Origin: Escherichia coli
GTDB taxonomy: Bacteria > Pseudomonadota > Gammaproteobacteria > Enterobacterales > Enterobacteriaceae
Strand: one strand, 5' to 3'
Assembly: GCF_016903815.1 (NCBI RefSeq)
Contig: NZ_CP069973.1
DNA: 64,000 bases
The translations under genes were made by a program, and so were the position numbers. Under the pieces are notes generated by a model, which saw nothing but the letters and a program-made list of their open reading frames with translations, had not been told where the DNA came from and searched no databases. Of this stretch, positions 36,623-41,163 are shown piece by piece (position 1 is the stretch's first letter; every line of letters begins with the position of its first letter).

Positions 36623-36795
36623 AAAGCAGTCTCCTGAACAGGTTGCACCATTTTAGTGCATTATAGCTTTTTACGGATAAAAAGCGCGTAGCATCAGAGA
36701 ATTGACGGAGAAAAAAGCCCATGCAGAGATGGGCTGAAAGTTTCCACGGCAACTAAATCCCGGCGTTGTTGCGCCGGGTAGTACAACTTCAACTA

Positions 36796-38205
36796 TTAGA
36801 CGCTGTAGTACAGCTCAAACTCTACCGGATGCGGAGTCATACGCACGCGGTCATCTTCTTCGCGACGCAGAGCGATGTACGCATCGATCGCTTCATCAGT
36901 GAACACACCACCGGCTTTCAGGAACTCGCGGTCCAGATCCAGTTCGTTCAGTGCTTCTTCCAGAGAACCAGCAACCTGTGGGATCTCTTTCGCTTCTTCC
37001 GGCGGCAGGTCATACAGGTTTTTGTCCATCGCTTCGCCCGGATGGATCTTGTTCTTGATACCGTCAAGACCGGCCATCAGCAGGGCAGCAAAGCACAGGT
37101 ACGGGTTAGCCGCCGGGTCCGGGAAACGTACTTCGATACGACGTGCTTTCGGAGAAGAAACCACCGGAATACGGATAGACGCAGAACGGTTGCGTGCAGA
37201 GTAAGCCAGCATTACCGGTGCTTCGTAGCCCGGGACCAGACGCTTGTAAGAGTTGGTGGTCGGGTTTGCCAGGGCATTAATCGCTTTCGCGTGTTTGATT
37301 ACGCCGCCAATATAGTACAGCGCCTGCTCAGACAGACCTGCGTATTTGTCGCCTGCGAACAGGTTGACGCCGTTTTTAGACAGCGACATGTGGCAGTGCA
37401 TACCGGAGCCGTTATCACCGAACATCGGTTTTGGCATAAAGGTCGCGGTTTTACCGAAGCGGTGCGCTACGTTGTGCACAACATATTTGTAGATCTGAAT
37501 TTCGTCAGCTTTTTTGGTCATGGTATTGAAGCGGGTAGCCACTTCGTTCTGACCAGCAGTCGCTACTTCGTGGTGATGGGCTTCAACCACCAGGCCCATC
37601 TGTTCCATCACCAGACACATTTCAGAACGAATATCCTGAGCAGAGTCTACCGGCGGAACCGGGAAGTAACCGCCTTTCACTGCCGGACGGTGACCTTTGT
37701 TACCACCTTCGTATTGGGTGGAGGAGTTCCATGCGCCTTCGATATCGTCGATAGCAACGTGAGAACCGGAGATAGATGATCCGAAACGGATGTCATCGAA
37801 CAGGAAGAATTCAGGTTCTGGCCCGAACAGTACGGTGTCGGCAATGCCAGTGGAACGCAGGTAATCTTCGGCGCGCTTCGCAATGGAGCGCGGGTCACGG
37901 TCATAGCCTTGCAGGGTGCCAGGTTCAAGGATGTCGCAACGGATAATCAGGGTGGAGTCGGCGAAGAACGGGTCAATCACTGCGGTGGATGCGTCTGGCA
38001 TCAGCACCATGTCGGACTCGTTAATGCCTTTCCAGCCGCCAATCGAGGAGCCGTCAAACATTTTGCCTTCTTCGAAGAATTCAGCATTCACCTGATGAGC
38101 AGGGATAGTGACGTGCTGTTCTTTACCTTTAGTATCGGTGAAGCGCAAATCAACAAACTTCACTTCGTGCTCGTTCAGCATCGTCAGTACGTGTTCAGCG
38201 GACAT
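36796..38205 (-). CDS. glnA: Glutamine synthetase GlnA (469 aa)
   Basis: Translation [40 protein letters not shown]... matches GlnA. Confidence 0.97.
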
Positions 38206-38288
38206 ACTTTAACTCTCCTGGATTGGTCATGGTCGTCGTGGTAACGAAATCTGCAATTATTTTGGCCGTGTCGCCGTAAAAAAGATAA

Positions 38289-38305
38289 AGCGAAATCTGT
38301 GCCAA
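38289..38305 (-). promoter_or_regulatory. glnAp2 sigma54 promoter (TTGGCACAGATTTCGCT on the minus strand)
   Basis: -24 GG and -12 GC elements with the canonical spacing, about 85 bp upstream of the glnA start. Confidence 0.8.
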
Positions 38306-38344
38306 CTTTTAAATTGCCCCTAAAAGGCGTTATCATGCTTAACA

Positions 38345-38430
38345 TCGTGCAAAAGGGCTGCACCATGATGTGAATGTTGCACCAATATAGTGCTTCAATG
38401 GAAACATTAAGCACCATATTGGTGCAATGA
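38345..38430. promoter_or_regulatory. NtrC enhancer sites upstream of glnA (TGCACCA-N-TGGTGCA palindromes)
   Basis: Near-perfect palindrome gcaccatattggtgc at 38411-38425 plus related half-sites tgcaccaatatagtgc and tgcaccatgatg upstream. Confidence 0.75.
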
Positions 38431-38577
38431 CCTTTGGATAACCCTTTTTATGCTCCGTGAAAGCAATCACAAAGGGACTCTGCAATACTTGTTTGCGGAG
38501 GATGTTTGTGATCCTGTTTTGTAGTGCGATTAATCCGTGTACAATAACGCGCTATTTCTAATGCCTGAGGCAAAGTT

Positions 38578-40401
38578 GTGATCGAAAAATTGCGTAATAT
38601 CGCCATCATCGCGCACGTAGACCATGGTAAAACCACCCTGGTAGACAAGCTGCTCCAACAATCCGGTACGTTCGACTCTCGTGCCGAAACCCAAGAGCGC
38701 GTGATGGACTCCAACGATTTGGAGAAAGAGCGTGGGATTACCATCCTCGCGAAAAACACCGCTATCAAATGGAATGATTACCGTATCAACATCGTTGATA
38801 CCCCGGGGCACGCCGACTTCGGTGGTGAAGTTGAACGTGTAATGTCCATGGTAGACTCAGTGCTGCTGGTGGTTGACGCATTTGACGGCCCGATGCCGCA
38901 AACGCGCTTCGTAACCAAAAAAGCGTTTGCTTACGGCCTGAAGCCGATTGTTGTTATCAACAAAGTTGACCGCCCTGGCGCGCGTCCTGACTGGGTTGTG
39001 GATCAGGTATTCGACCTGTTCGTTAACCTCGACGCGACCGACGAGCAGCTGGACTTCCCGATCGTTTACGCTTCTGCGCTGAACGGTATCGCGGGTCTGG
39101 ACCACGAAGATATGGCGGAAGACATGACCCCGCTGTATCAGGCGATTGTTGACCACGTTCCTGCGCCGGACGTTGACCTTGACGGTCCGTTCCAGATGCA
39201 GATTTCTCAGCTCGATTACAACAGCTATGTTGGCGTTATCGGCATTGGCCGCATCAAGCGCGGTAAAGTGAAGCCGAACCAGCAGGTCACTATCATCGAT
39301 AGCGAAGGCAAAACCCGTAACGCGAAAGTCGGTAAAGTGCTGGGCCACCTCGGTCTGGAACGTATCGAAACCGACCTGGCGGAAGCTGGCGATATCGTGG
39401 CGATCACGGGCCTGGGCGAACTGAACATTTCTGACACCGTTTGCGACACGCAAAACGTTGAAGCGCTGCCGGCACTCTCCGTTGATGAGCCGACCGTTTC
39501 TATGTTCTTCTGCGTTAACACCTCGCCGTTCTGCGGTAAAGAAGGTAAGTTCGTAACGTCTCGTCAGATCCTGGATCGTCTGAACAAAGAACTGGTACAC
39601 AACGTTGCTCTGCGCGTAGAAGAAACCGAAGACGCCGATGCGTTCCGCGTTTCTGGTCGTGGCGAACTGCACCTGTCTGTTCTGATCGAAAACATGCGTC
39701 GTGAAGGTTTCGAACTGGCGGTATCCCGTCCGAAAGTTATCTTCCGTGAAATCGACGGTCGTAAACAAGAGCCGTATGAAAACGTGACTCTGGACGTTGA
39801 AGAACAGCATCAGGGTTCTGTAATGCAGGCGCTGGGCGAACGTAAAGGCGACCTGAAAAACATGAATCCAGACGGTAAAGGCCGCGTACGTCTCGACTAC
39901 GTGATCCCAAGCCGTGGTCTGATTGGTTTCCGTTCTGAGTTCATGACCATGACTTCCGGTACGGGTCTGCTGTACTCCACCTTCAGCCACTACGACGACG
40001 TACGTCCGGGTGAAGTGGGTCAGCGTCAGAATGGCGTACTGATCTCTAACGGTCAGGGTAAAGCGGTAGCGTTCGCGCTGTTCGGTCTGCAGGATCGCGG
40101 TAAGCTGTTCCTCGGTCACGGTGCAGAAGTTTACGAAGGTCAGATTATCGGTATTCATAGCCGCTCTAACGACCTGACTGTAAACTGCCTGACCGGTAAG
40201 AAACTGACCAACATGCGTGCTTCCGGTACTGACGAAGCCGTTGTTCTGGTTCCGCCTATCCGCATGACTCTGGAACAAGCTCTGGAGTTCATCGATGATG
40301 ACGAACTGGTAGAAGTGACTCCGACCTCTATCCGTATTCGTAAACGTCACCTGACGGAAAACGATCGTCGTCGCGCCAACCGCGCACCGAAAGACGATTA
40401 A
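38578..40401 (+). CDS. typA: Ribosome-associated translational GTPase TypA/BipA (607 aa, GTG start)
   Basis: Translation [32 protein letters not shown]... matches BipA. Confidence 0.95.
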
Positions 40402-40424
40402 TTTCGTTTTTTAGTTATAAAAAA

Positions 40425-40451
40425 CCTGCCATCGCTGGCAGGTTTTTTTTT
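40425..40451 (+). terminator. typA rho-independent terminator (cctgccatcgctggcagg plus nine T)
   Basis: Stem cctgcca/tggcagg followed by a T-run; the IS200-like copy B begins immediately after. Confidence 0.8.
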
Positions 40452-41163
40452 GTGCACAGAAAACCCCCAGCTAGGCTGGGGGTTCCGGAAAGCTTTCAGC
40501 TTTGAGCCAGTTATTAAAACCCCTTTTGATTTGTTAAAACACCTTGCGGTCTGGCAACTGCAAGTGTCAAACAAGAAATCAAAAGGGGGTCCCAATGGGG
40601 AACGAAAAGAGCTTAGCGCACACCCGATGGAACTGTAAATATCACATAGTTTTTGCGCCAAAATACCGAAGACAGGTGTTCTACAGAGAGAAGCGTAGAG
40701 CAATAGGCAGTATTTTGAGAAAGCTGTGTGAGTGGAAAAGCGTACGGATTCTGGAAGCTGAATGCTGTGCAGATCATATCCATATGCTTGTGGAGATCCC
40801 GCCCAAAATGAGCGTATCCGGGTTTATGGGATATCTGAAAGGGAAAAGCAGTCTGATGCTTTACGAGCAGTTTGGTGATTTGAAATTCAAATACAGGAAC
40901 AGGGAGTTCTGGTGCAGAGGGTACTACGTCGATACAGTGGGTAAGAACACGGCGAAGATACAGGATTACATAAAGCACCAGCTTGAAGAGGATAAAATGG
41001 GAGAGCAGTTATCGATTCCCTATCCGGGCAGCCCGTTTACGGGCCGTAAGTAACGAAGTTGGATGCAAATGTCAGATCGTGTGCGCCTGTTAGGGCGCGG
41101 CTGGTAAGAGAGCCTTATAGGCGCATTTGAAAAACCTCCGGCTATGCCGGAGGATATTTATTA
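40452..41163 (+). mobile_element. IS200-like element, copy B, same orientation as copy A
   Basis: Near-identical to 23701..24413 (only a few substitutions seen); the same terminal hairpins are present. Confidence 0.85.
40595..41053 (+). CDS. tnpA: IS200-type HUH (Y1) transposase TnpA (152 aa)
   Basis: Track ORF 40544..41053; the internal ATG gives MGNEKSLAHTRWNCKYHIVF..., with an amino-acid sequence identical to copy A. Confidence 0.9.
   Translation: MGNEKSLAHTRWNCKYHIVFAPKYRRQVFYREKRRAIGSILRKLCEWKSVRILEAECCADHIHMLVEIPPKMSVSGFMGYLKGKSSLMLYEQFGDLKFKYRNREFWCRGYYVDTVGKNTAKIQDYIKHQLEEDKMGEQLSIPYPGSPFTGRK

What the first reader, a model, noticed from the sequence alone, without database searches (positions are those of the whole stretch)
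38206..38577. glnA-typA divergent control region: sigma54 promoter plus NtrC enhancer palindromes
Seen: TTGGCACAGATTTCGCT (-24/-12 element) on the minus strand at 38289-38305 and TGCACCA/TGGTGCA palindromes at 38360-38425. Established: this is the glnAp2 architecture activated by phosphorylated NtrC. It appears intact despite the nearby IS200 insertion downstream of typA.
Basis: partly seen in the sequence, partly recalled or inferred. Interest (0 to 1): 0.25.

Follow-up and report, generated by a model that had tools for sequence, protein, structure and literature searches.

The report
E. coli glnA nitrogen-control promoter region
This is the textbook E. coli switch that turns on glutamine synthetase when nitrogen is scarce; it is ordinary and intact, apart from a common natural three-base variant in one weak regulator-binding site.

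Summary
The window is Escherichia coli. The 372-bp glnA–typA spacer (38206-38577) matches K-12 at 366 of 372 positions. The sigma-54 -24/-12 element TTGGCACAGATTTCGCT lies at 38289-38305 (-) with GG and GC unchanged. The two strong NtrC enhancer palindromes sit at -140 and -108. The weak sites III and V, the region where literature distances place glnAp1, and the CRP site half-sites are also unchanged. glnL and glnG lie downstream. This is the already-known glnAp1/glnAp2 control region.

Two qualifications apply. "Intact" is not fully true. Three clustered substitutions (38339, 38340, 38342; -61/-62/-64) change the promoter-proximal half of weak NtrC site IV, a "governor" site, from GGTGCG to GTTAAG. 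This allele occurs in 2204 of 5425 complete E. coli genomes. It is seen in no other enterobacterial species sampled. It may weaken the cap on glnA expression at high NtrC~P; that is inferred, not tested. The IS200C element (40453-41163) sits just after the typA terminator, about 2 kb away, and is irrelevant to glnA control.

Side notes: an Rfam ES222 sRNA match on the opposite strand, a rare CRP-spacer SNP, and an O157-type glnA 3'UTR. Interest is low.

The parts
36796..38205 (-). glnA coding sequence (glutamine synthetase, 469 aa), the gene controlled by this region
   Evidence: The ORF is listed. NCBIfam NF007006 gives 1048.6 bits over the full length. The CDS has 24 differences in 1410 nt from K-12.
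38214..38219 (-). glnA Shine-Dalgarno sequence AGGAGA, 8 nt upstream of the ATG
   Evidence: Read from the sequence. It is identical to K-12.
38278..38278 (-). Inferred glnAp2 transcription start (+1), giving a 73-nt leader
   Evidence: This is inferred. It lies 12 nt downstream of the GC of the -12 element. It places the centres of the palindromes at exactly -140 and -108 and the weak sites at -89, -66 and -45, as published (PMC5159524; PWM hits). It was not measured here.
38289..38305 (-). Sigma-54 -24/-12 promoter element TTGGCACAGATTTCGCT (GG at 38302-38303, GC at 38290-38291)
   Evidence: Seen. It is identical to K-12. The exact 17-mer is found upstream of glnA in 83 enterobacterial species loci.
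38315..38331 (-). Low-affinity NtrC site V (centre -45), AACGCCTTTTAGGGGCA
   Evidence: The position comes from PMC5159524. It is the third-best PWM hit in the spacer and is identical to K-12.
38336..38352 (-). Low-affinity NtrC site IV ('governor' site, centre -66). The window reads TTGCACGATGTTAAGCA and K-12 reads TTGCACGATGGTGCGCA. The variant bases are 38339, 38340 and 38342.
   Evidence: The alignment and the difference list are. In the PWM scan the -68 register falls from -9.2 to -28.2 while the left half TGCAC is kept. The window allele is in 2204 of 5425 E. coli genomes. Among 83 enterobacterial species loci, the TTAAG form appears only in E. coli.
38359..38375 (-). Low-affinity NtrC site III (centre -89), ATTCACATCATGGTGCA, with a spacer SNP at 38366 (A here, G in K-12)
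   Evidence: Seen. The position comes from PMC5159524.
38378..38394 (-). High-affinity NtrC enhancer site II (centre -108), AGCACTATATTGGTGCA
   Evidence: Seen. It is identical to K-12. The PWM score is 25.1, though that PWM was trained on sites I and II, so the score is circular.
38393..38393 (-). Approximate glnAp1 (sigma-70, CRP-activated, NtrC-repressed) transcription start, 115 bp upstream of glnAp2. Its -35 region (TTGCAC, 38422-38427) overlaps NtrC site I.
   Evidence: The 115-bp distance comes from PMC1865078. The assignment of the -35 hexamer is inferred from the sequence. The region is identical to K-12 except for the site I centre base.
38410..38426 (-). High-affinity NtrC enhancer site I (centre -140), TGCACCAATATGGTGCT. 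The centre base 38418 is T here and C in K-12.
   Evidence: Seen. T is the commoner state at this position in the 28-sequence alignment across genera. Sequence identical to the window over 38396-38440, which includes this base, is found in 1295 of 5425 E. coli genomes.
38456..38471 (-). CRP-type site TGTGATTGCTTTCACG upstream of glnAp1 (centre about -70.5 from glnAp1). The spacer SNP at 38465 is T here and C in K-12.
   Evidence: Read from the sequence. Both half-sites are nearly invariant across genera. A classical CRP site upstream of glnAp1 is cited in PMC1865078. Sequence identical to the window over 38443-38487 is found in only 93 of 5425 E. coli genomes.
38389..38496 (+). Match to Rfam RF02755 (ES222 sRNA) on the typA strand, overlapping NtrC sites I and II and the CRP site
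   Evidence: cmscan gives 131.4 bits against a gathering score of 62, over the full model length. Its function is unknown.
38478..38500 (+). Conserved hairpin CTCTGCA...TGCGGAG at the 3' end of the ES222 match, terminator-like but with a weak T tract
   Evidence: Found by the terminator scan. The stem is largely conserved in sequence across genera. It contains a T·G wobble that pairs only on the + strand (read from the sequence).
38506..38545 (+). Candidate typA sigma-70 promoter region: TTGTGA (38506-38511), 17 nt, ATTAAT (38529-38534); or alternatively -10 TACAAT (38540-38545)
   Evidence: This is inferred from the sequence. The block 38500-38577 is almost invariant in 26 sequences spanning about 17 genera. 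No experimentally mapped start site was found.
38578..40401 (+). typA/bipA coding sequence (GTG start, 607 aa), the divergent neighbour
   Evidence: NCBIfam NF007583 gives 1441.9 bits. The gene is annotated in the identical strain and in K-12.
36644..36660 (-). NtrC palindrome TGCACTAAAATGGTGCA in the glnA-glnL spacer (glnLp operator), part of the same autoregulatory circuit
   Evidence: Seen. The role of glnLp is described in PMC3870243.
40453..41163 (+). IS200C insertion (711 bp) immediately after the typA terminator T-run. It is not part of the glnA control region.
   Evidence: The junctions against K-12 are shown. The transposase matches NF033573. It is annotated as IS200C in strain 7/2. 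The junction is present in 126 of 5426 genomes.

Best explanation
The spacer 38206-38577 is the canonical Escherichia coli glnA (glnALG) control region, facing the divergent typA/bipA gene.

Mechanism, as established for K-12 and carried over by near-identity:
- Under nitrogen limitation NtrB phosphorylates NtrC.
- NtrC~P binds the two strong palindromes at -140 and -108, oligomerises, and contacts sigma-54 RNA polymerase by DNA looping.
- The polymerase is held in a closed complex on TTGGCAC-N5-TCGCT. ATP hydrolysis by NtrC opens the complex, and transcription starts about 73 nt upstream of the glnA ATG.
- The same bound NtrC occludes the weak sigma-70 promoter glnAp1, 115 bp upstream, which otherwise depends on CRP-cAMP bound at TGTGA-N6-TCACG.
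- Three weak NtrC sites (-89, -66, -45) modulate output. Sites III and IV act as a 'governor' that limits transcription at high NtrC~P.

In this strain everything is as in K-12, except that the promoter-proximal half of site IV is replaced (GGTGCG to GTTAAG). This is a common E. coli allele. It is predicted, but not shown, to weaken the governor.
For: - Identity to K-12: 366 of 372 positions match, with the -24/-12 element, the site I/II/III/V half-sites and the CRP half-sites unchanged.
- Position: the palindrome centres fall exactly on the published -140 and -108, and the weak sites on -89, -66 and -45, when +1 is 38278.
- Chance: NtrC palindromes with up to 2 mismatches number 3 against 0.23 expected, all in glnALG control regions.
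- Gene context: glnA, glnL (NtrB) and glnG (NtrC) lie downstream, and typA is divergent.
- Population: the 501-bp region is present once in 5425 of 5426 complete E. coli genomes.
- Conservation: a footprint across 83 enterobacterial species loci shows site I, site II, the right half of site III, the left half of site IV, the -60 to -30 block and the -24/-12 element conserved.
- Literature on the mechanism: PMC5159524, PMC1865078, PMC3870243, bioRxiv 10.1101/2023.01.17.524496.
Against: - Nothing in the sequence contradicts this explanation.
- No transcription start, protein binding or expression was measured for this strain.
- rpoN is not in the window.
- The site IV allele shows the region is not strictly identical to the K-12 reference on which the mechanism was worked out.
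- The glnAp1 hexamers are poor matches to consensus, and I could only place them from published distances.
Confidence: 0.95

Rival explanations
1. The region is canonical, but the site IV allele (GTTAAG for GGTGCG at -64 to -61) is a functional cis-regulatory polymorphism. It removes one half-site of a governor site, lowers NtrC occupancy there, and raises the ceiling of glnAp2 output at high NtrC~P. Read-through would raise glnLG output as well. This would apply to about 40% of E. coli.
For: - Three substitutions fall within 4 bp, exactly on the GTGC half of the GCAC-N4-GTGC element.
- In the PWM scan the right-half register drops from -9.2 to -28.2.
- As summarised in PMC5159524, mutating sites III and/or IV increased output at high NtrC, citing Atkinson et al. 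2002.
- The allele is frequent, 2204 of 5425 genomes, and is a derived state seen only in E. coli among 83 species loci.
Against: - No expression data exist for the two alleles.
- The right half of site IV is the least conserved part of the block across genera, with more than 20 variants. This suggests weak constraint, so the change may be neutral.
- The left half-site TGCAC is retained.
- Overall divergence of the spacer (1.6%) equals that of glnA (1.7%), so no excess of change needs explaining beyond the clustering.
- A preprint comparing UTI89 and W3110, whose alleles I did not determine, reports broadly similar regulation.
Confidence: 0.3
2. The motif matches are chance occurrences, and the spacer has no sigma-54/NtrC function.
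For: - The loose -24/-12 consensus alone is at chance level in the window, 3 found against 3.07 expected.
- The exact 17-mer also occurs in about 30 unrelated genomes (Bacteroidales and others) with unrelated flanks. That number is of the order I estimate by hand for a 17-mer in 298 Gb, roughly 35.
Against: - The spacer is 98.4% identical to the experimentally dissected K-12 region.
- The palindromes are enriched about 13-fold over chance and sit only in glnALG control regions.
- The elements are conserved across 83 enterobacterial species loci while adjacent spacer DNA varies.
Confidence: 0.01
3. The nearby IS200 insertion perturbs the glnA/typA control region, for example through read-through or promoter effects.
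For: IS200C is present at 40453-41163, and this insertion is lineage-specific, found in 126 of 5426 genomes.
Against: - The element lies 1.9 kb beyond the control region, past the entire typA gene.
- It is inserted after the intact typA terminator hairpin and T-run.
- It lies downstream of typA and on the far side from glnA.
- The control region shows no rearrangement.
Confidence: 0.02
4. The NtrC enhancer and CRP site also serve the + strand. They would regulate the ES222 transcript or an upstream typA promoter, making this a genuinely bidirectional control region rather than two back-to-back independent promoters.
For: - The full-length Rfam ES222 match at 38389-38496 (+) starts within site II and covers site I and the CRP site.
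- It ends at a conserved hairpin that favours the + strand.
- The typA-proximal 80-110 bp is unusually conserved.
Against: - There is no -24/-12 match on the + strand in the spacer.
- I found no recognisable sigma-70 hexamers upstream of 38389 when reading the sequence.
- No literature on ES222 or on typA start sites could be retrieved.
- ES222 may be a by-product of transcription or a processing fragment.
Confidence: 0.1

Closest known systems
E. coli K-12 glnAp1/glnAp2 regulatory region (Reitzer & Magasanik; Ninfa; Atkinson et al. 2002 'governor')
   Same: - The locus and gene order are the same.
- 366 of 372 nt are identical.
- The -24/-12 element, the leader, the site I/II/III/V half-sites, the CRP half-sites and the typA-proximal promoter region are identical.
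   Different: There are six substitutions:
- Three are clustered in the promoter-proximal half of weak site IV (GGTGCG to GTTAAG).
- One is the central base of site I (C to T).
- One is in the site III spacer (G to A).
- One is in the CRP-site spacer (C to T, rare: 93 of 5425 genomes).

glnA promoters of other Enterobacteriaceae (Salmonella, Klebsiella, Citrobacter, Enterobacter and others)
   Same: - The 17-nt sigma-54 element is identical.
- The architecture is the same: a CRP site, two strong NtrC palindromes and a conserved -80 to -30 block.
- typA is the divergent neighbour.
   Different: - Most other genera carry GGTGCG or AGTGCG at site IV.
- The TTAAG form was seen only in E. coli.
- Leader lengths and inter-site spacers vary between genera.
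Simpler NtrC/sigma-54 promoters (glnK, nac, glnHp2)
   Same: They use the same activator, the same sigma factor and the same looping mechanism (general knowledge; PMC3870243 and PMC1865078).
   Different: glnA has, in addition, an overlapping sigma-70/CRP promoter that is repressed by the same NtrC sites. It also has three low-affinity sites that cap output.
Rfam RF02755, ES222 sRNA
   Same: The match is full-length and well above the gathering score, on the + strand of the same spacer.
   Different: It is not part of the glnAp2 mechanism. No function or promoter could be assigned here.

Membership tests
Sigma-54 (RpoN) dependent promoter | Conserved GG at -24 and GC at -12 with the correct spacing (TGGCAC-N5-TTGCW-like) | tested here: met
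   TTGGCACAGATTTCGCT lies at 38289-38305 (-), one mismatch from the consensus and identical to K-12 glnAp2.
Sigma-54 (RpoN) dependent promoter | Transcription depends on rpoN and starts about 12 nt downstream of the GC | not testable with these tools
   No expression data are available, and rpoN is not in the window. The start at 38278 is inferred from published distances.
glnAp2 enhancer architecture (NtrC-activated) | Two high-affinity NtrC palindromes (TGCACCA-N3-TGGTGCA) centred at -140 and -108 | tested here: met
   The palindromes are at 38410-38426 and 38378-38394. The half-sites are identical to K-12, and the centres fall on -140 and -108 (PMC5159524).
glnAp2 enhancer architecture (NtrC-activated) | Three low-affinity NtrC sites at -89, -66 and -45 (governor/modulator sites) as in K-12 | tested here: inconclusive
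   Sites III and V have unchanged half-sites. Site IV keeps TGCAC but loses GTGC (now TTAA). Whether NtrC still binds at -66 cannot be decided from the sequence.
glnAp2 enhancer architecture (NtrC-activated) | The cognate two-component genes glnL (ntrB) and glnG (ntrC) lie downstream in the same operon, with an NtrC operator at glnLp | tested here: met
   NF008293 gives 700.8 bits and NF008176 gives 1051.5 bits. The palindrome is at 36644-36660.
glnAp2 enhancer architecture (NtrC-activated) | Activation by phosphorylated NtrC under nitrogen limitation | not testable with these tools
   This is carried over from K-12 experiments through 98.4% identity.
glnAp1 (sigma-70, CRP-activated, NtrC-repressed tandem promoter) | A CRP site (TGTGA-N6-TCACA) upstream of a start 115 bp upstream of glnAp2, with core promoter elements overlapped by NtrC sites I and II | tested here: met
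   TGTGATTGCTTTCACG lies at 38456-38471, about -70.5 from the inferred glnAp1 start. The half-sites are identical to K-12 and nearly invariant across genera. The distance and role come from PMC1865078. The -10 and -35 hexamers could not be confirmed independently.
Rfam RF02755 ES222 sRNA | Covariance-model score above the curated gathering score | tested here: met
   The score is 131.4 bits against a gathering score of 62, covering model positions 1-108 of 108.

The most novel reading that the evidence does not exclude
The three-base replacement in weak NtrC site IV (GGTGCG to GTTAAG, -64 to -61) is a functional natural 'governor' variant. It is carried by about 41% of complete E. coli genomes, including an O157:H7 genome and this strain's lineage. 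On this reading it raises the maximal glnALG output, and hence GS, NtrBC and GlnZ levels, under severe nitrogen limitation. The ceiling of the Ntr response would then differ systematically between major E. coli lineages.
Probability: 0.25. Interest if true: 0.35.

Novelty: already known. Interest (0 to 1): 0.1.

Why it matters
The region is the classic model for bacterial enhancer-dependent transcription. Finding it here adds nothing new to that model.

The only point of wider use is that the reference K-12 sequence is not the only common form. A frequent E. coli allele removes half of one governor site, and a rare lineage-specific SNP sits in the CRP-site spacer. If these variants change the ceiling or the carbon-nitrogen cross-talk of glnA expression, they would be a ready-made natural test of how low-affinity sites tune an enhancer. 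They could also matter when glnA expression is compared between pathogenic and laboratory strains.

Tried and rejected
- **Motif statistics.** The -24/-12 consensus is at chance level in 64 kb, so I relied on homology instead.
- **NtrC PWM.** A PWM trained on sites I and II from many genera is over-fitted. The weak sites all score below zero, so only relative changes between alleles were used.
- **ES222 literature.** A search returned only irrelevant hits. The PMC id I tried for the paper I believe first described ES222 is not held.
- **typA/bipA promoter.** Searches for a mapped promoter or start site gave nothing usable. The supplements of a genome-wide TSS paper contained no typA or glnA entries. 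The typA promoter assignment therefore stays inferred.
- **Linkage with the glnA 3'UTR type.** I asked whether the site IV allele simply travels with the O157-type 3'UTR. The counts differ: at least 2859 genomes carry the 3'UTR type and 2204 carry the site IV allele. The two are therefore not one fixed haplotype.
- **Template-switch origin.** I considered a quasi-palindrome template-switch origin for the triple substitution, using the downstream GATAAC. By eye, only 2 of the 3 changes fit, so I dropped it.
- **New sites created by TTAAG.** I looked for a new sigma-70 hexamer or another recognisable site created by the allele. Reading the sequence gave nothing convincing.
- **IS200 effect.** I rejected any effect on this region, because the element lies beyond the intact typA terminator.

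Full report
**What is in the sequence.** Reading 38000-38800 shows AGCGAAATCTGTGCCAA on the + strand at 38289-38305. Three TGCACCA/TGGTGCA-type elements follow at 38359-38375, 38378-38394 and 38410-38426. The flanking ORFs are glnA (36796-38205, -) and typA/bipA (38578-40401, +). glnL, glnG and hemN lie beyond glnA, and an IS200-family transposase lies beyond typA. All of these have full-length equivalog matches.

**Is it more than chance?**
- The loose sigma-54 consensus alone is not significant: 3 matches with up to 1 mismatch in 64 kb against 3.07 expected.
- The NtrC palindrome with up to 2 mismatches is significant: 3 matches against 0.23 expected, and 1 of 100 shuffles reached 3.
- All three palindrome matches lie in glnALG control regions. 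Two are here, and one is in the glnA-glnL spacer at 36644-36660, the glnLp operator.

**Identity of the locus.** The window is Escherichia coli.
- A 501-bp query across the spacer is 100% identical to several clinical E. coli chromosomes. It is present once in 5425 of 5426 complete genomes.
It gives 366 of 372 identical positions in the spacer.
- The -24/-12 element, the 73-nt leader, the Shine-Dalgarno sequence and the entire typA-proximal half have no change at all.
- The spacer divergence (1.6%) is the same as in glnA (1.7%) and glnL (1.7%).

**Anatomy.** I set +1 of glnAp2 at 38278, which is 12 nt downstream of the GC and 73 nt upstream of the ATG.
- The palindrome centres then fall at exactly -140 (38418) and -108 (38386).
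- A simple NtrC matrix picks out -45 and -89 as the next-best positions in the spacer.
[quoted passage not shown] That places its start near 38393.
- The sequence TGTGATTGCTTTCACG at 38456-38471 is then centred about -70.5 from that start.

**Conservation across species.** One scan of species-representative genomes with the exact 17-mer returned 120 loci. Eighty-three of them are enterobacterial glnA upstream regions.
- Alignments show the following elements conserved: the CRP half-sites, site I, site II, the right half of site III, the left half of site IV, the block from about -60 to -30, and the -24/-12 element.
- The intervening spacers and the leader vary.
- About 30 hits in unrelated phyla have unrelated flanks. 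That number is of the order I estimate by hand for a 17-mer in about 298 Gb, roughly 35.

**Mechanism.** This is carried over from K-12 by near-identity and was not measured here.
- NtrC~P bound at -140 and -108 oligomerises and loops to the sigma-54 holoenzyme closed complex. It uses ATP hydrolysis to open the complex.
- The same binding represses glnAp1.
- CRP-cAMP activates glnAp1 and antagonises glnAp2.
- The low-affinity sites modulate output, with sites III and IV acting as a governor at high NtrC~P.

**The one real departure from 'intact'.** Three of the six differences from K-12 are clustered at 38339, 38340 and 38342 (-61, -62, -64).
- They convert site IV from TTGCAC GAT GGTGCG CA to TTGCAC GAT GTTAAG CA. 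The GTGC half of the GCAC-N4-GTGC element becomes TTAA.
- In the matrix scan the register carried by the right half falls from -9.2 to -28.2. The register carried by TGCAC is unchanged.
- This is a common dimorphism. 2204 of 5425 complete genomes carry the window allele, including an O157:H7 genome. 3209 carry the K-12 allele, and 12 carry something else.
- Among the 83 enterobacterial species loci, GGTGCG or AGTGCG is the majority state. TTAAG occurs only in E. coli, so it is derived.
- Positions -64 to -61 are also the least conserved part of an otherwise block that is 90% conserved or better, with more than 20 variants across genera. That argues for weak constraint.
- Mutation of sites III and/or IV was reported to raise output at high NtrC (Atkinson et al. 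2002, as summarised in PMC5159524). A weaker governor is therefore a reasonable but untested prediction, which I rate at about 0.25-0.3.

**The other three differences.**
- The central base of site I (38418) is T here. T is the commoner state in the cross-genus alignment. Sequence identical to the window over 38396-38440, which includes this base, is found in 1295 of 5425 genomes.
- A site III spacer base (38366) is A here and G in K-12.
- A CRP-site spacer base (38465) is T here. It is C in K-12 and in the other aligned sequences. Sequence identical to the window over 38443-38487 is found in only 93 of 5425 genomes.

**IS200.** Comparison with K-12 puts a 711-bp IS200C element at 40453-41163. 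It sits directly after the typA terminator hairpin and T-run.
- The junction is present in 126 of 5426 genomes. The 12 such genomes listed show 18-23 places matching the query, which includes the IS200 left end.
- The element is separated from the control region by the whole typA gene and its intact terminator, so I see no route by which it could affect glnA control.

**The typA side of the spacer.**
- Rfam RF02755 (ES222 sRNA) matches full-length at 38389-38496 on the + strand, with 131.4 bits against a gathering score of 62. The match starts inside NtrC site II and covers site I and the CRP site.
- It ends at a hairpin (38478-38500) that is largely conserved across genera and pairs better on the + strand.
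- I found no convincing promoter for ES222 and no retrievable literature on it.
- The last ~80-110 bp before the typA GTG are almost invariant in 26 sequences spanning about 17 genera.
- That stretch contains candidate sigma-70 elements: TTGTGA-17-ATTAAT, or the -10 hexamer TACAAT. No mapped start site could be retrieved.
- There is no + strand -24/-12 match in the spacer, so typA is not a sigma-54 gene.

**Verdict.** This is the already-known glnAp1/glnAp2 control region of E. coli, functionally intact in all core elements. The added value is small: a common natural variant of governor site IV, a rare CRP-spacer SNP, and the ES222 overlap. Interest is low.

Noticed in passing
window 36623-36795 (- strand): The glnA-glnL spacer (glnA 3'UTR/GlnZ sRNA plus glnLp) is 173 bp here and 285 bp in K-12. 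The window lacks the REP-like block of K-12. By length it fits the short 'O157-type' glnA 3'UTR (85 nt) described in PMC9731577. The terminator and the glnLp NtrC palindrome (36644-36660) are retained. At least 2859 of 5426 genomes carry this proximal 3'UTR form.
   Followed up: partly
window 38389-38496 (+): There is a full-length match to Rfam RF02755 (ES222 sRNA) at 131.4 bits. It lies on the strand opposite to glnA and overlaps NtrC sites I and II and the CRP site. It ends at a conserved hairpin (38478-38500). No promoter, function or literature could be found.
   Followed up: partly
window 38500-38577 (+): The typA-proximal part of the spacer is almost invariant in 26 sequences spanning about 17 genera, including TTTGTGATCCTGTT, CGATTAAT and CGTGTACAATAACGCGCTATTTCTAATGCCTGAGGCAAAGTTGTG. 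By eye it looks more conserved than nearby third-codon positions of typA in the same alignment. This suggests dense, uncharacterised regulation of typA/bipA.
   Followed up: partly
window 38465: There is a rare derived SNP in the spacer of the glnAp1 CRP site: TGTGATTGC here against TGTGATCGC in K-12. Sequence identical to the window over 38443-38487 is found in only 93 of 5425 complete E. coli genomes. The C is nearly invariant across genera.
   Followed up: partly
window 40453-41163: A 711-bp IS200C element is inserted immediately after the typA terminator T-run. The junction is found in 126 of 5426 genomes, and the listed genomes show 18-23 places matching the query. The IS200 right end carries its own terminator-like hairpin, which aligns loosely with the displaced typA terminator.
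   Followed up: yes
window 40386-40585 (+): There are two further Rfam matches. STnc490 (146 bits) lies in the 5' part of IS200 at 40462-40585. STnc370 (53 bits, just below its gathering score of 54) lies over the typA stop and terminator at 40386-40454.
   Followed up: no
loci L006, L018, L019, L024, L055, L060 and others (genome-contig hits): About 30 exact matches to the 17-mer TTGGCACAGATTTCGCT occur in unrelated genomes (Bacteroidales, Proteiniphilum, Planctomycetia and others), with flanks only 24-34% identical. That number is of the order I estimate by hand for chance in 298 Gb, so these are not homologues.
   Followed up: partly
window 36711-36815 (-): There is a weak, sub-threshold Rfam match to Yersinia sRNA Ysr49 (34 bits against a gathering score of 95) over the glnA stop and start of the 3'UTR. 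It may only reflect conservation of the glnA 3' end.
   Followed up: no
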